From: a virus
Taxonomy: Duplodnaviria > Caudoviricetes
DNA: 64,000 bases
Reading direction: 5' to 3' (one strand)
Virus record (IMG/VR): IMGVR_UViG_3300043432_000485
Coordinates: 32,001 to 96,000 of that record
Below are positions 7,641-26,299 of the stretch, one piece after another. Every line of letters begins with the position of its first letter. The first letter of the stretch is position 1. A program made the translations under genes and the position numbers. The notes beneath the pieces are model-generated. The model worked only from the letters and a program-made list of their open reading frames with translations, was not told the origin of the DNA and ran no database searches.

Positions 7641-8190
7641 CCAAGAAGCCAACGTAGAGGTTCGACATCTCTTCCAGCATGGGTTGGATCTCGTGACCCC
7701 ACTTCGGGTCCAACAACGTCCGCAGAGAGTCTGTGCCCATGATGATGGTGCACCCCGGAAAGAGTCTGGCTTTCTCCAGGTAGGTGGCTCCTTGATCCAG
7801 GAACAACACATCGCGCTTCCCATGCAACCAATGCAGGCGGTCCAGCATGTCCGACAAAGACAACGGGGGCTTGTGCGGGGCATTGGTTGTGATCTGGAAG
7901 ACTGTGTATTCGTCCCCACAGTGAAAATGACCGTCATGTGCCGGATTGAAAGAGCCCGGGTACAAGACGGGGCTCTTGTCAGTCAGCTCCGCTAGCCTCC
8001 TGCCATCACGGGTGAAGAAAGGTCGGGCCAAGAGGGCCTTGCGGGCGTCGTCCGAGGCATCTACGATCTTGGAATAGCAGTAGCCTGGCAGCTCGGTCTC
8101 GACTCCCGCGGCATGAAGGATCATCATCAACCCGTCGGCGTCGGCGCAGTTACCGTCCCCAACTCTGGCGTCAACCCCTGCCTTGTCCAA
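7495..8190 (-). CDS. Cytidylyltransferase-superfamily nucleotidyltransferase, probably 5'-truncated
   Basis: YPGSFNPAHDGH (HxGH), MGTDS, C-terminal SSTQIR; only a TTG start without a clear RBS. Confidence 0.65.
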   Translation of the reverse strand: MDKAGVDARVGDGNCADADGLMMILHAAGVETELPGYCYSKIVDASDDARKALLARPFFTRDGRRLAELTDKSPVLYPGSFNPAHDGHFHCGDEYTVFQITTNAPHKPPLSLSDMLDRLHWLHGKRDVLFLDQGATYLEKARLFPGCTIIMGTDSLRTLLDPKWGHEIQPMLEEMSNLYVGFLVNPRGEDNVEEILQGVPKEYRYMFSSMPPSPYQDLSSTQIRESRNRGV

Positions 8191-11240: not shown

Positions 11241-11444
11241 ATGTGGCAATTCATGTTCCCATCTAAAGCTCCCCTGGTGGAGGCTGTGGGGCGTCAGTAT
11301 CGACGCAAGCAGGACACCATGACCTAGGAGCTGGTGGCTATCGACACGACGGCTGACACGGTCAAGCTTCGCGGCCCCGGCTACGGCAAGGGCCACATGA
11401 CGATCAGCCGCACCGAGTTTCAAAAGGATTGGGTAGCAGCATGA
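11241..11444 (+). CDS. Small protein with an in-frame TAG at codon 29 (11325-11327)
   Basis: ATG 7 nt after GGTGTAGA; MWQFMFPSKAPLVEAVGRQYRRKQDTMT*ELVAIDTTADTVKLRGPGYGKGHMTISRTEFQKDWVAA; TGA overlaps the coaD ATG. Confidence 0.6.
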
Positions 11445-11977
11445 CCACAGCAGTTTACGCGGGAAGCTTCGACCCTGTTACATTGGGGCATCTGGACTTG
11501 ATCCTCAAGGCCAGCAAGTCGTTTCAAGAGGTCATCGTAGGAGTAGGTGCCAACTCCCAGAAGAAGCAGCCCTTGTTCGATCAAGACGAGCGAATCAAGC
11601 TGGTCCGAGGGGCCTTATCAGAGATTAGTGCCACGAAGTCAGGGCTCCTGAGCAACAGCACTCGGGACCGCATCTATGTGATGCCATTTAATGGCTTGCT
11701 GGTGGACTTCTGCCTAGCACAATCGGCAACCGTGATCGTGCGCGGGCTGCGCGCCGTAAGTGACTTCGAGGTCGAGATGGCTATTGCACATGCCAACAGC
11801 AGCATGTGCCAGCACATCGATACCGTGTTCTTCCCCACCAAGCCCGAGCACTCTTTCGTGTCCAGCTCCACCGTCAAAGAGATCGCCTTCCATCCCAGCA
11901 CCACCGGATGGGCCAGCCTTCACCAATACGTGACCTCCAATGTGTTGGAAGCTCTTCGAGAGAAGAAGTTCAAATGA
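11441..11977 (+). CDS. coaD: Phosphopantetheine adenylyltransferase
   Basis: AVYAGSFDPVTLGHLD, IVRGLRAVSDFEVE, FVSSSTVKEIA. Confidence 0.9.
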   Translation: MTTAVYAGSFDPVTLGHLDLILKASKSFQEVIVGVGANSQKKQPLFDQDERIKLVRGALSEISATKSGLLSNSTRDRIYVMPFNGLLVDFCLAQSATVIVRGLRAVSDFEVEMAIAHANSSMCQHIDTVFFPTKPEHSFVSSSTVKEIAFHPSTTGWASLHQYVTSNVLEALREKKFK

Positions 11978-12759: not shown

Positions 12760-13218
12760 CTAGCTGTGGTCACGATTGTTCCGCCCACAAAAAGTTGGAG
12801 ATTGGGAGTCGCAGTTGGGGCACACGAAACGGAGATTGTCAATCCGATCATCATTGCGTTCACCGTTAATGTGGTCTAAACGCAGGACAAGAGGTTTCCC
12901 TCTCCACTCTGGTCCCATGCCACATTCTGCGCAATTGTAGGGAATCAGACTATGAGTCAGGATCACGCGTTTCAGAGTCTTACGGGCATAGGATCCGTTG
13001 GGAACAAGAGCCGACTCCGGAGTAGCCAGTGGACGTCGAGTCACCGCTTTCCAGTGTTCTGTACTCAACCCTAGCTTCTGTACCGTGTTTCTTACTAGCG
13101 CATAGCTCGTGCCAACTCTGGCTATCCCCAGATATTGGATGGCTCTCAGAGTGGATGTGGTACGAGAGACCGCTTCTATGATTTCTTGTTCAGTAGGTGT
13201 ACGAGATTTTTTACCCAT
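12760..13218 (-). mobile_element. HNH homing endonuclease immediately downstream of the tRNA
   Basis: CAEC...LRLDHINGERNDDRIDNLRFVCPNCDS; AT-richer than flanks. Confidence 0.85.
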
Positions 13219-13238
13219 ATGTAGGTTAGGACTTAGAA

Positions 13239-13313
13239 TGGCGGTCCCGAGGTGATTCGAACACCCCTACTGCAATTTTAGAGGTTGCTGCCTGGCCACT
13301 AGGCTACGGGACC
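13239..13313 (-). tRNA. tRNA with CUA anticodon (amber suppressor type), encoded CCA end
   Basis: GGTCCCG/CGGGACC acceptor stem; GCCT/AGGC D stem; GCAAC-CT CTA AA-ATTGC anticodon arm; GGGTG-TTCGAAT-CACCT T arm; G73-CCA. Confidence 0.88.
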
Positions 13314-13426
13314 ATGTCCTACATCTACACCATTTTATGGATTCTGTCGCGCTCTTTTGTCTGGAGTTTTTGACCGCCCAAGTGTCTTAGGGGTAAGACT
13401 TCCCTCTGAACCAAAGGACACTGAAC

Positions 13427-14299
13427 ATGGGTAAGACAGCAATCAAGGCTCCTCGCGGCAAGACCAGCTTCCGGCTCGATCCGAACGACCCGCGCCTGCG
13501 TCTCATCGGGCACGACACCAACCACAAGGATGGCGAGCACATCTGCTACCAGGAGCGCGCCCACCTTCCGGTGGATGAGGAGTTCGCGCAGTACATGGCG
13601 GTCCATGGCTGCACCAGCGTCCTCATCGTCTTCCGGGACGGGGACTTCCTGGACATCGTGGTCGGCCGCCGCCGTCTCAAGGCTGCACGCCGCGCCAACG
13701 AGATCCGAGCTGAGCGCGGGCTGGACCCGATCCGCATCGAAGTCCAGGTCTTCGACGGTACGCCCCTCGAAGTTCTGGCCCTCATGATCACCGAGAACTC
13801 GCGGCGTCTCGAACCGCACGCCATTCAGATGGCGCTCGATCTCAACCGCTTCCTCCGCCTGGGGGCGACTCTTACGGAGGCAGCGTTCACGATCGGCAAG
13901 TCCGAGCAGACGGTCACCAACTACATCAGCCTTCTGCGCCTCTCGACTCCGGTGCAGGAAGCGGTTGCCCGCGGTGACCTCGCGGTGTCGGCGGCCATCG
14001 AACTGCTGAGCCTCACACGCGACGAGCAGACGGTCGAGCTGGTGAGCTTGCTGGCAAAGGGCGAGCGCCCGACGGCCGCCAACGTCAACGCGGCGGTCCG
14101 TACCAAGAAGTCCGGTGAGGCGGTTTCCCCCGCGCCCAAGACGCGCACTCTCCGCAAGCTGATCGCAGCGGAGGGCGCCGAGGAAGTGCTCGGGGAGAAC
14201 GGGATCGCGCTCATCCGCTTCGTGCTCGGCGAGCTGCCGGCGCGCAACATCAAGGGCCTGACCGAGCTGCTCCGCAAGGTGGAGAGCAAGAAGGCCTGA
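13427..14299 (+). CDS. ParB/Spo0J-like protein with HTH
   Basis: IVVGRRRLKAA, ITENSRRLEP, IGKSEQTVTNYISLLRL; strongly GC3-biased codons. Confidence 0.75.
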   Translation: MGKTAIKAPRGKTSFRLDPNDPRLRLIGHDTNHKDGEHICYQERAHLPVDEEFAQYMAVHGCTSVLIVFRDGDFLDIVVGRRRLKAARRANEIRAERGLDPIRIEVQVFDGTPLEVLALMITENSRRLEPHAIQMALDLNRFLRLGATLTEAAFTIGKSEQTVTNYISLLRLSTPVQEAVARGDLAVSAAIELLSLTRDEQTVELVSLLAKGERPTAANVNAAVRTKKSGEAVSPAPKTRTLRKLIAAEGAEEVLGENGIALIRFVLGELPARNIKGLTELLRKVESKKA

Positions 14300-16872: not shown

Positions 16873-17052
16873 ATGGAATCCATCAAACCCGCCCCATCAC
16901 CTGATTCCGTGCGCCATGCGATGGTCCTGCACCGTCTGGCGAAGCACCCTTTCGAGAGAAGGATTCCAGGCCGCCTCGTACAACAAGACGGCCTGGATAT
17001 CCACATGGTATGCGGGGTATGCTCAGAAGTGATCTATGTGCTGAGCAACTAG
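16873..17052 (+). CDS. Small hypothetical protein (59 aa, CxxC near C-terminus)
   Basis: Read manually: MESIKPAPSP...HMVCGVCSEVIYVLSN*; downstream of GGTGTAAG. Confidence 0.5.
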   Translation: MESIKPAPSPDSVRHAMVLHRLAKHPFERRIPGRLVQQDGLDIHMVCGVCSEVIYVLSN

Positions 17053-17402
17053 CGGGAGAGGGCCAGGGGTAGAGAGCTAGTGATCCTCCTCCCCTCGGGT
17101 CCGAGCGCGATTGCAGTCAGCTCGTTGTTGCGATCCGGCTCCCTGAATCTGGACACCTGGATGTACCGGCCTTCAGCTTTCTTGGCCAGTGCCTCCAAGG
17201 CATCCTCATTGGGAGCCACCAGTAGCGCTAGGGTGTTGGACTCTTGGTGCCATTGCTTGGCTACCTATCCATGTTCGAAAATGAACTCGGTTATGGCATG
17301 TATTGATTGTACTGCCTGTTGTGCATAGCTTAGATCAGACCTTACAATCACGTATAGTTTCGAGATACGTGATCGCCGTTCGCATTGCTGTGGTGTTGTC
17401 AT
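17049..17402 (-). CDS. Peptidyl-tRNA hydrolase 2 (PTH2)-like protein with an in-frame TAG at 17267-17265
   Basis: Read manually: KLYVIVRSDLSYAQQAVQSIHAITEFIFEHG*VAKQWHQESNTLALL...FREPDRNNELTAIALGP...SSLPLAL; absent from the ORF track. Confidence 0.7.
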
Positions 17403-18003
17403 GAAAATATCCTAGTCCTTGGTTACAGGGGTTACACAGAAGTCCACGAACCCTGCCTGAGACATGGTCGTGATCTACATCGAATCTATTTGGGGTGCCC
17501 CTACATATTGCACATACCCCACCTTGAAAAGCTAACATGTCATTGTATTCATTTAGGGTTATGCCATGTGTTTTCAATAGGTAGCCATTTTTCCTACGTT
17601 CTTGGTTCTTAGCTACCCAGGCTTGCCATACGATTTTTCTCTTCTCTGGATTGGAATTTCTCCAGGCAGTATTTTTAGCCTTTTGGCACGCTTTGCAACA
17701 GCTTTGGAGGCCTCCTTCACCCGACTTGCTGAGGTGATACTCAGTGACTGGTTTAGTTTCCATACAGGTAGAGCAACGTTTGGAGCCGGTTGTTCTAACC
17801 GGGGCGCCATTCTCGGCTCTGGACTTTCTCCATTCCTTAGTGCGTTCCCTCTGACAAAGCTTACAGTAGGCTCCAACCCCCTGGCTACCCCTGGAAGCTT
17901 TGTGAAAGGAATCTATGGGCAACTCTTCTTGACATCTCGAACATTTCTTCATACAGCAGCAGAGCAACAAGAATAGTATTGAGTCAACAGGCTTAGAGGC
18001 CAT
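17335..18003 (-). mobile_element. Endonuclease VII-like homing endonuclease inserted at the 5' end of the PTH2-like gene
   Basis: CAIC...DVDHDHVSGRVRGLLCNPCNQGLG; repeated CxxC; AT-rich. Confidence 0.85.
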
Positions 18004-18541
18004 CTGGACCTCCAAAGAGCTTCTGACAGATGGCACGGCCCCGCCGGTCAATCTGTTTCCACTTGATCTTGAATGACGTGCTCTCTGGGCCTCCAAACAT
18101 GGAGGCGTTTGCGTGGATTTCCGCTAGGCCTGAGATCAACAACGTGGGTGCTTCCGGAAGAGCGCAGAACGCATCTATCCCATCAGCTTTCAAGGTGTGG
18201 ATCTTCATGTCGAGCCGCATCAGATTGGCGGAGGCCTGGGTTCCACCTACGCCAAGCCACGTACGGTACGAGACCTCAGCGTGCTCCGGGAACTTGGTTA
18301 TGCCATCTGACTGGCAGTAAGGCTTCCCACAGTCATGATAGGTCGTGTACTCCTCGATGATGTCGATTGGAGCCAACGCGCTTAACAGCTGCCCTCGATA
18401 CTGTTTGATCCAACTGGGCAGTACCCACCAACCCTCTAGATGCCCTCCTTGCAAATAGGAGATCAACTGGAGGGTGTGCCAACGGACTGACAATCCATGG
18501 TCAAACACTGACTGACCTTTGGTTTGTTGACAGTCCTGCAT
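17993..18541 (-). CDS. HD-domain protein
   Basis: HDCGKPYC...FPEHAEVS...DMKIH. Confidence 0.7.
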   Translation of the reverse strand: MQDCQQTKGQSVFDHGLSVRWHTLQLISYLQGGHLEGWWVLPSWIKQYRGQLLSALAPIDIIEEYTTYHDCGKPYCQSDGITKFPEHAEVSYRTWLGVGGTQASANLMRLDMKIHTLKADGIDAFCALPEAPTLLISGLAEIHANASMFGGPESTSFKIKWKQIDRRGRAICQKLFGGPDGL

Positions 18542-18554
18542 GTCTTGGATGAGG

Positions 18555-18881
18555 TCAATCTACGTCATCGGAGTCCTCATCAGCATCAGGGTCCATACCG
18601 GCTAGAATCATGGCATCGAAGTCCAGGTAGCGGACTGCCCACCAGCCTATGATTTCTTTGTCCTTGAGATCCGGGTACCGGGGCCTGTCCTTAGCGTCGT
18701 AGTACCTGGCTTTCAGGTCCTCCATCGTGTAAGGGATGTGCGTTTCATGTCTGCGACGTCGACCATCTTCATAGGTATAGCGCCGCAGCCCTAGGATGGA
18801 TTCGAAAAGCTCATGGTTGGCACATGAGACCTGATACTCTTCCGCACTCATCGGAACCACACCAAACACGCGGGCCGCCAT
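18555..18881 (-). CDS. Hypothetical protein
   Basis: Intact ORF in a tightly packed minus-strand run. Confidence 0.55.
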   Translation of the reverse strand: MAARVFGVVPMSAEEYQVSCANHELFESILGLRRYTYEDGRRRRHETHIPYTMEDLKARYYDAKDRPRYPDLKDKEIIGWWAVRYLDFDAMILAGMDPDADEDSDDVD

Positions 18882-19210
18882 TGGTGTGCCATCTGGATCT
18901 GGGTCGACGCTCCCTTCACCAATACAGTCGAACCAGTGAGGGGCTCTAGCTCGTTCTGGATGAAACGACGCCGGTAGCGGAAGGCGTCTATCACTCCAGT
19001 CTGCAGCTCTACGAGCCGGTTCAGATCAGTGTGCTCCAGAGTCCTTAGCCACACCTCATAGTCCGAGGCTCCTCCGAACCCGTGCCCTTTCTCTTTGGAG
19101 AAAAGCAGGGACAGGCCGCCCCTTTTCATGGGGGTGGCTTGGAACACTAGACGCTGGAGACGTTTGATCTCAGCCTGCAGCTGTTGAATGGTTTGCTCTT
19201 GCTCGGTCAC
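18848..19210 (-). CDS. Hypothetical protein with N-terminal coiled coil
   Basis: GTGA overlap with the upstream stop. Confidence 0.55.
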   Translation of the reverse strand: MTEQEQTIQQLQAEIKRLQRLVFQATPMKRGGLSLLFSKEKGHGFGGASDYEVWLRTLEHTDLNRLVELQTGVIDAFRYRRRFIQNELEPLTGSTVLVKGASTQIQMAHQWRPACLVWFR

Positions 19211-19566
19211 TCGGCAGCCTCCGTGACCTGGGCCACTACCGGCGCCGCTGCATTCAACCACTGCTCGATAGCTTCGCTGGAAAGTGCCAGCCCTCGCTGA
19301 TCAGCCATGGCTTTCATCCCACGGTTGATCCAGTAGAGGACATTGCGATCGTACTTGGGCTCCACCACATGATGGGGGATTCCGCGCAACATCGCGTAGC
19401 ACAACAACAGGCATCGGGTGTCGCGGCCGTAGCTGCGCTTGTCGTCCCAATGCTGCCAGCGGTCCATACCGCTAGACCCATGGATCAGCTTGCGGATCTC
19501 GCGACTCTCCGCTTCACGTTGACGTAACTCTGCTTTCAATTCCGGGAACTTAGACTTCTTGCTCAT
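19207..19566 (-). CDS. Hypothetical protein
   Basis: AGGAG RBS; TTGACA...TATATT promoter-like sequence upstream at about 19690-19714. Confidence 0.65.
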   Translation of the reverse strand: MSKKSKFPELKAELRQREAESREIRKLIHGSSGMDRWQHWDDKRSYGRDTRCLLLCYAMLRGIPHHVVEPKYDRNVLYWINRGMKAMADQRGLALSSEAIEQWLNAAAPVVAQVTEAAE

Positions 19567-19731
19567 GACAATTTCTCCTGTGACTGGGTGTTGACTCGTT
19601 GAAGACAACACGTCACAGGAGGGCCACGCGCGCGAGCCCAACTAGCAATCTACCAGAGATGTCCGTGAATCTGCATAGTGGGCCTAATATAGTGGCTATT
19701 GCCTACCTGTCAAGAGACAAGTAGAAAAATC

Positions 19732-25857: not shown

Positions 25858-26252
25858 TCTACACACCATTCGAAGAAGAGCAGATCCTACTCAACAGCGG
25901 CCTTCTGGACGAGATCACCCATCAGGCGTTGGAGGCGGTCCACGACAACTACAACGAGCCACATCGCCACTACCATGCGTGGCACCACGCCCTGTCCACC
26001 ATTTCCTGGGTCAACTACTGCGCGGGGGAAACCAGGCTCAGGGGCTACACGCACTTGGAGATGGCTCTCGCGGCTCTCTACCATGACGCGGTTTACGACA
26101 CCGCGGGCTCGCCCTCCAATGAGGAGCGCAGCGTTCAGTTCCTGAGGCAGCACAATCAAGGTTACAACACGGCAGCCACCGAGCGGCTCATCATGCTCAC
26201 GGCTAAGCATGGCAAGTTGGAGCGGCTCGGTCACCATCACCTGGGAGAATGA
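25854..26252 (+). pseudogene. HD-superfamily phosphohydrolase, C-terminally truncated
   Basis: YNEPHRHYH..HH, LYHDAVY, SNEERS; lacks the usual distal DADL segment. Confidence 0.55.
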
Positions 26253-26299
26253 TGACCCAGAAGTCGAACCAGAAGTCGAACCGGAAGACGAGTTCCTAG

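What the first reader, a model, noticed from the sequence alone, without database searches (positions are those of the whole stretch)
13239..13313. tRNA with a CUA anticodon (amber suppressor type)
Seen in sequence: a complete cloverleaf on the minus strand with a perfect 7-bp acceptor stem, G73, an encoded CCA and a canonical T arm. The 7-nt loop CT-CTA-AA puts U at 33 and CUA at 34-36; C31-A39 is mismatched. The recurring GGTGTA promoter motif lies 10 nt upstream. Established: CUA decodes UAG, and suppressor tRNAs are reported in large phages. The arm lengths are canonical, so it is not tRNA-Pyl-like. Inference: G73 and the D arm fit a Gln/Glu-type origin, but the charged amino acid cannot be determined here. 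TAG also ends many normal genes in this window (NADAR, lysozyme, 7495, 56117), so this looks like selective readthrough rather than full recoding.
Basis: partly seen in the sequence, partly recalled or inferred. Interest (0 to 1): 0.85.

Follow-up and report, generated by a model that had tools for sequence, protein, structure and literature searches.

The report
Phage amber-suppressor tRNA keyed to gated operon
This is a real phage tRNA that reads the UAG stop codon; it does not rewrite the phage's genetic code but appears to switch on one small operon whose leader and two genes carry in-frame UAG codons, which gives "orphan" suppressor tRNAs of giant phages a likely target.

Summary
The tRNA(CUA) at 13239-13313 (-) is real: ARAGORN, Rfam at 51 bits, and an identical contig in an independent wetland metagenome. 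It is the only tRNA in a 203 kb fragment of a roughly 450 kb freshwater megaphage. TAG is a normal terminator here (35 of 198 genes; 14 of 19 testable ends coincide with orthologue ends). No conserved structural or replication gene has an in-frame TAG, and there is no release factor or Glu/Gln-tRNA synthetase, so this is not code 15.

The tRNA belongs to a conserved module. Between 3.7 and 6.4 kb upstream on the same strand lies an operon with three in-frame TAGs:
- A leader, M-Q-I-H-G-H-L-W-TAG-...-R-G-P-P, whose Pro-Pro codons start a hairpin that hides the next gene's Shine-Dalgarno.
- An HD-type gene that starts ATG-ACG-TAG.
- A Pth2-like hydrolase gene with TAG at codon 46 (Glu in the orthologue).

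In 81 related loci, 65 have a tRNA(CUA) nearby and 7 have UUA or UCA suppressors (control: 1 of 44). The leader's stop matches the tRNA's anticodon (CUA-TAG 10 of 10, UUA-TAA 3, UCA-TGA 1).

This scan found the same module before on other DNA. I found no published description. The inserted amino acid is unknown, and nothing has been tested experimentally.

The parts
13239..13313 (-). tRNA with anticodon CUA (amber suppressor type), CCA encoded
   Evidence: ARAGORN; Rfam RF00005 at 51.3 bits; identical in an independent metagenome contig
13278..13280 (-). Anticodon CUA, inside the loop C32-U33-CUA-A37-A38
   Evidence: The loop CUCUAAA is shared by 39 of 61 distinct Pth2-associated CUA tRNAs, and A37-A38 by 53 of 61
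13326..13332 (-). YGGTGTA upstream motif, 12 nt before the tRNA 5' end (candidate phage promoter or initiator element)
   Evidence: The motif lies within 40 nt upstream of 34 of 196 genes (2.0 expected), peaking at -15/-16. It is conserved in G004, G003, G005 and G001. A promoter function is inferred, not shown
12760..13218 (-). HNH endonuclease gene 20 nt downstream of the tRNA (probably a homing-type mobile gene; a neighbour, not part of the switch)
   Evidence: Weak Pfam HNH_3/HNH hits. The best match within the clade lies inside the tRNA array of relative G001
19686..19713 (-). Sigma-70-like promoter TTGACA-16-TATATT in front of the leader
   Evidence: 11 of 12 consensus matches, the only hit in the region. 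Function is inferred
19563..19676 (-). Leader ORF M-Q-I-H-G-H-L-W-TAG-I-A-S-W-A-R-A-R-G-P-P... The in-frame TAG is at 19650-19652 and the RGPP codons at 19617-19628. Its TGA overlaps the ATG of the next gene
   Evidence: Sequence. The same leader is in G004 and similar ones in distant loci. The leader's stop codon co-varies with the suppressor anticodon. RGPP is a proven arrest motif (PMC12992588)
19575..19622 (-). Hairpin pairing the Pro-Pro codon region (CCUCCUGUGAC...) with ...GUCACAGGAG, which sequesters the AGGAG Shine-Dalgarno (19575-19579)
   Evidence: RNA fold z = -2.96 in G000 and -4.12 for the G004 counterpart
18555..19566 (-). Three small genes of unknown function behind the leader: 19207-19566 (starts MSKKSKF...), 18848-19261 and 18555-18881
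   Evidence: ORFs. Homologues of the first gene follow such leaders in G004 and in loci L303, L319, L358, L370 and L377
17993..18568 (-). HD-motif gene with an 'amber head': ATG ACG TAG (TAG at 18560-18562), six codons, then ATG at 18539-18541
   Evidence: The same head (ATG, 2-3 codons, TAG, exactly 6 codons, ATG) occurs in 6 of 6 homologues from other phages. The fold is HD-like or like the tRNA nucleotidyltransferase body, on weak evidence
17335..18096 (-). Endonuclease VII/HNH-type gene inserted between the HD and Pth2-like genes (mobile insertion)
   Evidence: Pfam Endonuclease_7, E 1e-22. It is absent from this position in G004 and in 8 other loci, where the HD stop overlaps the Pth2-like start
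17049..17402 (-). Pth2-like peptidyl-tRNA hydrolase homologue with an internal in-frame TAG (17265-17267, codon 46) and a terminal TAG
   Evidence: Pfam PTH2 at 31 bits across the TAG. The G004 orthologue is intact, 56% identical, with Glu at that position. The profile hits Pth2 structures in the PDB

Best explanation
The gene encodes a functional amber-suppressor elongator tRNA of a roughly 450 kb standard-code freshwater phage. It does not recode the genome. It most likely acts in trans on one operon on the same strand (window 19676-17049).

Proposed mechanism:
1. The operon's mRNA starts with a short leader. Without the suppressor, the leader ends at UAG after eight codons.
2. With the charged tRNA(CUA), ribosomes read through and translate R-G-P-P, a strong arrest motif.
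3. The stalled ribosome sits on the 5' arm of a hairpin. This frees the Shine-Dalgarno of the next gene.
4. Two further genes of the operon each need UAG read-through to give a full product from the upstream start: an HD-type, possibly tRNA-binding protein and a divergent Pth2-like peptidyl-tRNA hydrolase.

The operon is therefore expressed in proportion to suppressor activity. The most likely purpose is to sense and limit that activity, or to clean up after it, in a genome where UAG also ends about 18% of genes.

Shown: the tRNA, the in-frame TAGs, their conservation, the linkage of the Pth2-like gene to suppressor tRNAs, and the stop/anticodon co-variation. Inferred: charging, arrest, SD unmasking, and what the HD and Pth2-like proteins do.
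For: - The tRNA is real and verified in an independent assembly.
- A relative with about 55% protein identity (G004) has a lone tRNA(CUA) at the equivalent place, about 1 kb from the CoaD-like gene. Only about 52% of its bases are shared, yet it keeps CUA, A37-A38 and G73.
- The Pth2-like gene occurs only in the two clade members that have the tRNA. G003 lacks both although the flanking genes are conserved.
- Of 81 loci holding a Pth2-like homologue, 65 have a tRNA(CUA). The median distance is 314 nt and 64 of 65 are on the same strand. Seven more loci have UUA or UCA suppressor tRNAs.
- Of 24 loci with exactly one tRNA, 22 have a suppressor. The control of CoaD-anchored loci gave 1 of 44.
- N-terminal gates in the Pth2-like family: 41 TAG, 1 TAA, 0 TGA among 65 distinct sequences. 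A purine follows the stop in 40 of 42.
- The HD amber head is present in 7 of 7 sequences with fixed six-codon spacing.
- Leader stop against anticodon: CUA-TAG 10 of 10, UUA-TAA 3, UUA-TAG 1, UCA-TGA 1; Fisher p = 0.011; 1 opposite-strand match in 82 loci.
- The SD-sequestering hairpin is present in both G000 and G004.
- RGPP arrest is established experimentally (PMC12992588, PMC10951233).
Against: - Nothing is experimental. Expression, charging, arrest and read-through are all inferred.
- In G000 the tRNA is 3.7 kb from the Pth2-like gene, separated by plus-strand genes, whereas most relatives have them adjacent.
- G000's Pth2-like gene lacks the family's N-terminal TAG. Its single internal TAG could be a recent nonsense mutation.
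- G004 and L289 have no TAG inside the Pth2-like domain.
- In mycobacteriophages Catera and Myrna the Shine-Dalgarno is better placed for a GTG just after the TAG, so there the TAG may lie outside the ORF.
- The HD gene has its own in-frame ATG six codons after the TAG, so it could be made by re-initiation.
- The C31-A39 mismatch may weaken the tRNA.
- G000 and G004 show no back-up-stop adaptation to read-through (p = 0.86).
- Only 16 of 82 loci show the strict leader pattern.
- 57% of the genome is not in hand.
Confidence: 0.62

Rival explanations
1. General nonsense-suppression insurance, or a step towards recoding. The tRNA gives low-level UAG read-through across the whole genome, as in the Borges et al. 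model where a suppressor is acquired before TAG codons accumulate in genes. The TAG in the Pth2-like gene is simply the first tolerated nonsense mutation.
For: Borges et al. report suppressor tRNAs in some standard-code relatives of recoded phages. G000's Pth2-like TAG corresponds to Glu (GAG or GAA) in G004, which is at most a one-base change. The 72 codons downstream of the TAG are still conserved.
Against: That model starts from low GC and a depleted stop codon. Here GC is 56% and TAG ends 18-22% of genes. It does not explain the tight, strand-specific linkage to one gene family in 72 of 81 loci, the fixed early position of the TAGs, or the stop/anticodon co-variation in the leaders. There are no in-frame TAGs in other conserved genes.
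Confidence: 0.12
2. The TAGs are true stops of mini-ORFs. The heads (M-T-stop, M-K-stop) and the leader are uORFs that end at UAG, and the downstream genes are made by termination-reinitiation or from non-AUG starts. Such minigenes shed peptidyl-tRNA, as the lambda bar minigenes do (from my own knowledge of that literature). The Pth2-like enzyme deals with that, and the tRNA(CUA) only modulates termination.
For: In Catera and Myrna the Shine-Dalgarno spacing favours the GTG after the TAG. The HD gene has an in-frame ATG 18 nt after the TAG. ATT or ATA, which are rare start codons, follow the TAG in 25 of 42 gates.
Against: Re-initiation does not need the same frame, yet the HD spacer is always in frame and exactly six codons, with a conserved residue pattern. 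RGPP downstream of the leader's stop would have no purpose if it were never translated, and the stop type tracks the anticodon. Most Pth2-like genes have no canonical start after the TAG.
Confidence: 0.13
3. The tRNA is aimed at others. It causes read-through of host UAG terminators, or premature expression of TAG-recoded genes of co-infecting phages, as a host-takeover or competition weapon. The gated operon only protects the phage's own translation.
For: The tRNA has its own copy of the phage-specific upstream motif. Relatives carry a tmRNA and a second, canonical Pth2, which suggests investment in ribosome rescue. Borges et al. mention suppressor tRNAs as possible signals between co-infecting phages.
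Against: There is no direct evidence. The phage's own 35 or more TAG-terminated genes would be hit as well, and they show no back-up stops. The host is unknown.
Confidence: 0.08
4. The tRNA is a non-functional relic or has a non-translational role, such as a decaying hitch-hiker of the neighbouring HNH homing gene, an attachment site or a primer.
For: It has a C31-A39 mismatch. It is an accessory gene, absent from G003. It sits next to an HNH gene. The record is flagged as a provirus.
Against: The cloverleaf is intact and the CCA is encoded. The anticodon loop CUCUAAA is kept across dozens of diverged homologous contexts. CUA is kept in G004 despite 48% sequence divergence with compensated stems. 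There is no adjacent integrase, and a full tRNA with a CUA anticodon is not expected to match a host attachment-site tRNA.
Confidence: 0.05

Closest known systems
Suppressor tRNA(CUA) of TAG-recoded (code 15) phages: crAss-like phages, Lak megaphages and others (Borges et al., bioRxiv 10.1101/2021.08.26.457843)
   Same: It is a phage-encoded tRNA with a CUA anticodon in a phage that presumably infects a standard-code host, probably charged by a host synthetase. Borges et al. also propose suppressor-dependent timing of gene expression.
   Different: In this phage TAG is a frequent, genuine terminator, and no structural, lysis or replication gene has an in-frame TAG. GC is 56% rather than low. 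No RF2 or synthetase 'code-change module' is present. The targets are a leader and two small genes of a single operon.
Orphan CUA suppressor tRNAs of cultured standard-code jumbo phages, e.g. Xanthomonas phage XacN1 (PMC5852040)
   Same: These are amber suppressor tRNAs in a large standard-code phage. The authors read through 18 amber stops in silico and found no target. The Pth2-like family found here also matches Xanthomonas, Ralstonia, Aeromonas and Prevotella (Lak) phage records and about 200 cluster-C mycobacteriophages.
   Different: Here candidate targets are identified. They would be missed by extending annotated C-termini, because the TAGs lie at codons 3-5 or in an unannotated leader. 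I did not inspect the XacN1 locus itself.
RAPP/RGPP ribosome-arrest leader peptides that unmask a downstream Shine-Dalgarno (ApdA, ApdP, ApcA; SecM and MifM in principle) (PMC12992588, PMC10951233, PMC7897499)
   Same: It is a short uORF ending in R-G-P-P, directly followed by a hairpin that hides the SD of the next gene.
   Different: Known arrest peptides monitor protein export or membrane insertion, and arrest is relieved by pulling force. Here the arrest motif lies behind an in-frame stop codon, so it can be reached only if a suppressor tRNA decodes that stop. The input would be suppressor activity.
prfB (RF2) autoregulation through an in-frame UGA (from my own knowledge of this system)
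   Same: An in-frame stop codon early in a gene lets the cell measure the competition between termination and an alternative decoding event, and sets expression of a translation factor accordingly.
   Different: prfB uses a +1 frameshift and senses a release factor. Here a dedicated tRNA reads the stop, and the regulated genes are a Pth2-like hydrolase and an HD protein.
Archaeal/eukaryotic-type peptidyl-tRNA hydrolase Pth2 (PDB 1rzw/3erj, 2zv3, 1q7s)
   Same: The partner gene matches Pfam PTH2 above its cut-off and matches Pth2 structures over the full length.
   Different: It is very divergent: NCBIfam equivalog scores are far below their cut-offs. The canonical G-K and D-A-G motifs are replaced. 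The genome also has a separate canonical Pth2. Its substrate is unknown.

Membership tests
Canonical elongator tRNA (Rfam RF00005) | Cloverleaf scoring above the family's gathering threshold, with a 7-bp acceptor stem, G18G19 and a T-loop GTTCGAAUC | tested here: met
   51.3 bits against a threshold of 29, model positions 1-71 of 71; ARAGORN; sequence
tRNA-Pyl | Six-bp anticodon stem, 3-nt variable loop, very small D loop without G18G19, and one base between the acceptor and D stems (features recalled from established knowledge) | tested here: not met
   It has a 5-bp anticodon stem, a 5-nt variable loop, a 7-nt D loop with GG, and two bases (U8 A9) between the stems. ARAGORN's 'Pyl' label follows from the anticodon alone
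tRNA-Pyl | Co-occurring pylS/pylBCD genes | not tested
   No search was made. The structural features already exclude membership
Bacterial initiator tRNA (read as a UAG-start tRNA) | A 1-72 mismatch and three consecutive G-C pairs at the bottom of the anticodon stem (established knowledge) | tested here: not met
   G1-C72 is paired. The anticodon stem is GCAAC/AUUGC with A-U pairs and a C-A mismatch
Suppressor tRNA of a TAG-recoded (code 15) phage | CUA anticodon | tested here: met
Suppressor tRNA of a TAG-recoded (code 15) phage | Many genes, typically structural or lysis genes, with in-frame TAG; better gene models under code 15 | tested here: not met
   There are no in-frame TAGs in conserved genes of G000 or G004. 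Other candidates were rejected by orthologues. 14 of 19 TAG ends coincide with orthologue ends. Only 43% of the genome is held
Suppressor tRNA of a TAG-recoded (code 15) phage | TAG depleted as a terminator; accessory RF2 or synthetase in some lineages | tested here: not met
   TAG ends 18% of genes. There is no RF-1/RF-2 domain and no Glu/GlnRS in five clade records
Suppressor-tRNA / Pth2-like UAG-gated module (defined in this scan; no publication found) | A divergent Pth2-like gene on the same strand near the suppressor tRNA | tested here: met
   The Pth2-like gene is at 17402-17049 (-), 3.7 kb from the tRNA. The family-wide median is 314 nt, so this copy is unusually distant
Suppressor-tRNA / Pth2-like UAG-gated module (defined in this scan; no publication found) | In-frame TAG at codons 2-5 of the Pth2-like gene | tested here: not met
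   G000 has an ATG start without an early TAG, because an Endo VII gene is inserted at the 5' end. Instead it has a TAG at codon 46
Suppressor-tRNA / Pth2-like UAG-gated module (defined in this scan; no publication found) | A leader uORF with an in-frame stop that matches the tRNA's anticodon, then R-[AG]-P-P, then an SD-sequestering hairpin | tested here: met
   Leader at 19676-19563 with TAG, RGPP and the hairpin
Suppressor-tRNA / Pth2-like UAG-gated module (defined in this scan; no publication found) | An HD-type gene with ATG-x(1-3)-TAG-x6-ATG head immediately upstream of the Pth2-like gene (a subgroup feature) | tested here: met
   The head is at 18568-18539, the same as in 6 of 6 homologues
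RAPP-type arrest peptide | R-A/G-P-P near the C-terminus of a small uORF upstream of a co-oriented gene | tested here: met
   RGPP is at 19628-19617. The leader continues for 17 more codons to a TGA that overlaps the next ATG
RAPP-type arrest peptide | Demonstrated ribosome arrest at the motif | not testable with these tools
   This needs toeprinting, a PURE system or reporter assays
Gln-, Glu- or Trp-derived suppressor (identity of the charged amino acid) | E. coli-type identity sets (established knowledge). Gln: U1-A72, G2-C71, G3-C70, G73, U35. Glu: G1-C72, U2-A71, C4-G69, no base 47. Trp: A1-U72, G73, C34, A36 | tested here: inconclusive
   The tRNA has G1-C72, G2-C71, U3-A70, C4-G69, G73, U35 and a 5-nt variable loop, so it fits each set only in part. 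It has no closest isotype among about 90 clade tRNAs. In the associated tRNA family N73 varies: A 31, G 20, U 7, C 3

The most novel reading that the evidence does not exclude
The tRNA and the operon form a self-referential circuit that measures stop-codon read-through. The leader's in-frame UAG followed by an RGPP arrest motif turns suppressor-tRNA activity into SD unmasking. The induced Pth2-like and HD proteins, each itself UAG-gated, then act on the suppressor tRNA or on its by-products, for example by deacylating it, trimming it, or releasing peptidyl-tRNA. This would hold UAG read-through at a set level in a genome that still uses UAG as a terminator. It would be a natural stop-codon-readthrough sensor, a type of regulator not described so far, present in about a hundred large-phage lineages including cultured mycobacteriophages and jumbo phages.
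Probability: 0.4. Interest if true: 0.88.

Novelty: new variant of a known kind. Interest (0 to 1): 0.74.

Why it matters
Amber-suppressor tRNAs in standard-code jumbo phages have been reported as puzzles with no target (XacN1, PMC5852040). They are otherwise read as steps towards genome recoding. This locus, with 81 related loci, points to a specific and conserved target set: a UAG-interrupted RGPP arrest leader and UAG-headed HD and Pth2-like genes. The type of stop codon follows the tRNA's anticodon.

If confirmed, it would be a natural switch driven by a suppressor tRNA. It combines two known principles, arrest-peptide control of a Shine-Dalgarno and stop-codon competition, in a way only built synthetically so far. 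It would also explain how a phage can carry a suppressor while still using that stop codon as a terminator.

The idea is directly testable in cultured phages that carry the same genes, such as cluster-C mycobacteriophages. It also affects annotation: in Catera and Myrna the CUA tRNAs are deposited as tRNA-Arg and tRNA-Ser.

Tried and rejected
1. Full or block-wise TAG recoding. Rejected on stop usage, orthologue C-termini and a strict tblastn test for in-frame stops.
2. A first tblastn screen using all ORFs was swamped by off-frame alignments and was discarded.
3. Coding-TAG-coding junction scan. There was no excess over G003, which lacks the tRNA. Individual candidates failed the orthologue check. 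The 193-aa and 1948-aa ORFs are separate genes, because they lie in different frames in G004. For the 100-aa and 273-aa pair, relatives align only downstream of the stop. The 'small gene' TAG at window 11325, from note e1-5365893, has no homologue and a start two codons after the TAG, so it is unsupported.
4. Back-up stop adaptation. None was found.
5. Ancestry of the tRNA. Acceptor-stem matches in bacteria are Arg and Asp tRNAs with different D arms. D-arm matches are scattered over isotypes. There is no closest isotype in the clade. The Gln/Glu and 'Trp-like scaffold' readings are therefore unsupported.
6. Strain variants with another anticodon. None were found in IMG/VR or in the metagenome collection.
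7. tRNA-Pyl and initiator-tRNA readings. Rejected on structure.
8. Attachment-site reading. There is no integrase nearby, and ParB-like and HNH genes flank the tRNA.
9. The ParB-like neighbour as an anchor for finding relatives gave nothing.
10. A release factor or Glu/GlnRS in the clade. None were found.
11. Testing the HD N-terminus through G004 failed because G004's HD gene is a C-terminal remnant. This was resolved later with other homologues.
12. Identity of the HD protein. Pfam and NCBIfam gave nothing. PDB sequence and fold hits are only weak.
Full report
**Observation.** ARAGORN finds exactly one tRNA in the window, at 13239-13313 on the minus strand, with anticodon CTA. Rfam's tRNA model matches 13242-13313 end to end at 51.3 bits against a threshold of 29.
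- a 7-bp acceptor stem GGUCCCG/CGGGACC, G73 and an encoded CCA
- a 4-bp D stem with a 7-nt loop containing GG
- an anticodon stem GCAAC/AUUGC with a C31-A39 mismatch, and the loop C-U-CUA-A-A
- a 5-nt variable loop and a canonical T arm

A plain thermodynamic fold recovers the helices. The window is part of a 203,362-bp IMG/VR virus record (43% complete by CheckV, GC 56%, no Ns), and this is its only tRNA. Public runs place the phage in freshwater, wetland and sediment metagenomes. A contig from an independent 2017 wetland study covers 13037-13505 with no difference, so the anticodon is not an assembly artefact. Scans of IMG/VR and of the metagenome collection with the anticodon left free found no copy of this tRNA body with another anticodon.

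**Not a recoded genome.** I built a codon-usage gene caller.
- It gives 198 genes, 85% coding, with stops TGA 123, TAA 40 and TAG 35.
- Five related records were fetched whole: G004, G003 and G005 at about 55% mean protein identity, G001 at 45% and G006 at 38%. All use TAG for 18-30% of genes.
- Of 19 TAG-ending G000 genes with an orthologue, 14 end exactly where the orthologue ends. The orthologue usually stops at TGA or TAA there. These include the 1948-aa and 1411-aa proteins.
- A strict tblastn test used queries restricted to predicted genes and required the subject frame to be the best coding frame. It finds no in-frame TAG in conserved genes of G000 or G004.
- Coding-stop-coding junctions are not enriched for TAG relative to G003. 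The individual candidates fall to orthologue checks.
- There is no shift towards nearby back-up stops behind TAG terminators (p = 0.86).
- The clade has no release factor and no Glu/Gln-tRNA synthetase.

**A conserved anticodon in a variable body.**
- G004 (208 kb) also has a single tRNA, again CUA. It lies about 1 kb from the same CoaD-like gene and in the same relative orientation.
- The two tRNAs share only about 52% of their bases, with compensated stems. They keep CUA, A37-A38, G73, A26, a 7-nt D loop and a 5-nt variable loop.
- G003 is close to G004 and has the same flanking genes, but it has two other ORFs there and no tRNA.
- G005 and G001 carry arrays of 42 and 48 tRNAs plus a tmRNA, but no CUA tRNA in the sequence held.

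**Ancestry and the charged amino acid are undetermined.**
- Bacterial tRNAs with the same acceptor stem and G73 are Arg and Asp tRNAs with different D arms.
- The D arm recurs in several isotypes.
- Identity to about 90 tRNAs of the clade is flat.

**The targets.** Reading the minus strand upstream of the tRNA shows a frame that matches Pfam PTH2 at 31 bits (cut-off 23) straight across an in-frame TAG at 17265-17267.
- The gene starts at the ATG at 17402, overlapping the 3' end of an inserted Endo VII-type gene.
- G004 has an intact syntenic orthologue, 56% identical, with Glu at the TAG position. The 72 codons after the TAG are as conserved as those before it.
- Within the clade this Pth2-like gene occurs only in G000 and G004, the two genomes with the tRNA.
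- An unrelated 137-kb, 63% GC contig that turned up by chance (L289) has a homologue ending about 65 nt before its own tRNA(CUA).

At this point notes from this scan on other genomes reported the same pairing. I treated them as a lead and tested the pairing on independent data.

**Family-wide test.** A profile of the three Pth2-like proteins retrieved 80 IMG/VR loci and one 'MAG' contig.
- Of the 81 loci, 65 hold a tRNA(CUA). The nearest one is a median 314 nt away, within 1 kb in 59 of 65, and on the same strand in 64 of 65.
- Seven more loci hold a UUA or UCA suppressor instead.
- Of 24 loci with exactly one tRNA, 18 have CUA and 4 have UUA.
- In the control of 44 loci anchored on the CoaD-like gene, only G004 has a CUA tRNA, 1 of 59 tRNAs in all.
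- Among 65 distinct Pth2-like sequences, 42 begin with a start codon, one to three codons, an in-frame stop, and no further start before the conserved K-L-Y-V-I-T-R core. That stop is TAG 41 times, TAA once and TGA never. It is most often codon 3, and a purine follows it in 40 of 42 cases, ATT in 22.

From established knowledge, a purine 3' of UAG favours suppression. A36-A37-A38, present in 53 of 61 of the associated tRNAs, is the determinant for the i6A37 modification that efficient suppressors need.

**The HD gene.** G000's gene upstream of the Pth2-like gene has an HDxGK motif (H-D-C-G-K). It is preceded in frame by ATG ACG TAG, then six codons, then the ATG usually taken as its start, with a GAGGA box five bases before the first ATG.
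- I first rated this weak, because G004's copy is a C-terminal remnant.
- Eight other loci carry a full-length homologue (52-65% identity) immediately upstream of the Pth2-like gene.
- All six distinct homologues show the same head: ATG, two or three codons, TAG, exactly six codons with the pattern x-x-L-[IT]-x-[DQ], then ATG. Their nucleotide sequences differ.
- In those loci the HD stop overlaps the Pth2-like ATG. G000 has an Endo VII/HNH-type mobile gene inserted at that junction.
- An AlphaFold model of the HD protein (pLDDT 79) finds class-II tRNA nucleotidyltransferase entries 3wfo-3wfs and HD phosphodiesterases, with high Foldseek probability but weak E-values. A sequence profile hits the same entries at E 0.02. 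I take this as weak, concordant evidence for an HD-type, possibly tRNA-binding protein.
- The Pth2-like profile matches solved Pth2 structures over the full length, but the G-K and D-A-G motifs are not conserved.

**The leader.** The block starts with a sigma-70-like promoter, TTGACA-16-TATATT, and a short ORF: M-Q-I-H-G-H-L-W-TAG-I-A-S-W-A-R-A-R-G-P-P.... Its TGA overlaps the ATG of the next gene.
- G004 has the same leader, M-Q-I-F-G-H-L-W-TAG-I-R-G-L-A-R-G-P-P.
- In both phages the RNA beginning at the Pro-Pro codons pairs with ...GUCACAGGAG, burying the AGGAG Shine-Dalgarno (z = -3.0 and -4.1).
- RGPP is experimentally the strongest RAPP-like arrest motif. It is resistant to EF-P and strongly avoided in proteomes (PMC12992588; PMC10951233).
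- Across the 82 loci I searched for ATG, up to nine codons, a stop, up to ten codons, then R-[AGS]-P-P, within 3.5 kb upstream of the Pth2-like gene. This gives 16 distinct leaders.
- Leader stop against the locus's suppressor: CUA-TAG 10, UUA-TAA 3, UUA-TAG 1 (a UUA anticodon also reads UAG), UCA-TGA 1, and one TAG leader in a locus with no tRNA found. Fisher p = 0.011.
- The same pattern gives one match on all opposite strands.

This co-variation is the strongest evidence that the suppressor tRNAs decode these stops.

**Mechanism (inferred).** The tRNA carries its own copy of YGGTGTA, 12 nt before its 5' end. This motif lies within 40 nt upstream of 34 of 196 genes (2.0 expected), peaks at -15/-16, and is conserved in four relatives. 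The operon has a host-type promoter.

I propose that operon mRNA is translated productively only once charged tRNA(CUA) is present. Read-through of the leader's UAG brings ribosomes to RGPP, where they stall and open the hairpin. The HD and Pth2-like proteins then also need UAG read-through to be made in full from the upstream start. Given what these proteins resemble, the operon most likely limits or cleans up suppressor activity. That would explain how a phage tolerates a suppressor while 18% of its genes end in UAG. This last step is speculation.

**Caveats.**
- G000's Pth2-like gene lacks the early TAG, and its internal TAG could be a recent mutation.
- G004 and L289 have no TAG inside the domain.
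- In Catera and Myrna the Shine-Dalgarno favours a GTG after the TAG.
- The strict leader pattern is seen in only 16 of 82 loci.
- The tRNA has a C31-A39 mismatch.
- 57% of the genome is missing.

**Comparison with what is known.** Phage suppressor tRNAs are well known in TAG-recoded phages. They are occasionally seen in standard-code relatives, where they are read as a step before recoding in low-GC lineages.
- XacN1, a cultured standard-code jumbo phage, has two CUA tRNAs for which the authors found no target.
- A PTH2-like gene was noted in about 96% of cluster-C mycobacteriophage tRNA arrays, without any link to a CUA tRNA. In Catera and Myrna ARAGORN finds a CUA tRNA 130-250 nt downstream of that gene, deposited as tRNA-Arg and tRNA-Ser.
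- Seven literature searches found no description of the tRNA/Pth2-like pairing or of a stop-interrupted arrest leader. The library is limited to open-access papers and bioRxiv.
- The scan itself has reported the module on other DNA. This report adds an independent test and a new, dispersed example.

**Verdict.** As a tRNA, it is a new member of a known kind. As part of a UAG-gated arrest-leader operon, it is a new variant that appears to be unpublished.

Noticed in passing
whole window and relatives; e.g. 13326-13332 (-), 12220 (+), 14341 (+), 25479 (+), 32452 (+): A clade-specific motif YGGTGTA sits 15-16 nt before the start codon of about 17% of genes (34 of 196 against 2.0 expected). It is usually followed by a purine-rich SD. 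It is conserved in G004, G003, G005 and G001 but absent in G006. It may be a promoter or initiator for a phage-specific transcription machinery with very short leaders.
   Followed up: partly
12760-13218 (-) and 17335-18096 (-): Two HNH/Endo VII-type, probably homing, endonuclease genes flank parts of the module. One lies 20 nt downstream of the tRNA, and its best clade homologue lies inside G001's tRNA array. The other is inserted between the HD and Pth2-like genes, overlaps the Pth2-like 5' end and replaces the family's usual amber head.
   Followed up: partly
L378 3111-3184 (Catera, NC_008207.1) and L379 2987-3058 (Myrna, NC_011273.1): In these deposited mycobacteriophage records, the tRNAs that ARAGORN reads as CUA (amber suppressor type) are annotated tRNA-Arg and tRNA-Ser. 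They lie 130-250 nt downstream of the Pth2-like gene (gp153 and gp84).
   Followed up: partly
L134 / L377 (JBAZJM010000003.1, 'Lentisphaeria MAG' contig, 69 kb): This contig carries a phage-like tRNA array, a DNA polymerase 40% identical to this phage's, and the Pth2-like gene with a CUA tRNA and a leader. It is probably a large-phage contig binned into a bacterial MAG.
   Followed up: partly
G005 (L191-L207) and G001 (L208-L230): Relatives carry 42 and 48 tRNA genes plus a phage-encoded tmRNA (tags ANYNGFAQAA and ANDNSIADRLVA). G000 and G004 probably have similar arrays in the missing half of their genomes.
   Followed up: no
G004: L297 about 7778-8044 (G004:130250-130519): G004's HD gene is only a C-terminal 89-residue remnant, while its Pth2-like gene and leader are intact. 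The module is therefore being remodelled within the clade. G003 has lost the operon block and the tRNA altogether.
   Followed up: partly
outside the window: G000 25859-26296 (+): The genome also encodes a second, canonical Pth2 (145 aa, ending in TAG at the family-typical C-terminus). It is distinct from the divergent Pth2-like gene of the module.
   Followed up: no
L249, L251, L266, L267, L271, L287 (CoaD-anchored loci): The CoaD-like cytidylyltransferase-fold gene (window 11429-11977) lies next to ordinary tRNA arrays in several distant large phages, which hints at a tRNA-related role for it. L251 also has an ARAGORN call with a four-base anticodon (gttt).
   Followed up: no
L301, L303, L304, L314, L370 (UUA) and L316 (UCA): Some members of the module use ochre-type (UUA) or opal-type (UCA) suppressor tRNAs, several with long variable arms (91-95 nt). 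Their leaders carry TAA or TGA accordingly.
   Followed up: partly
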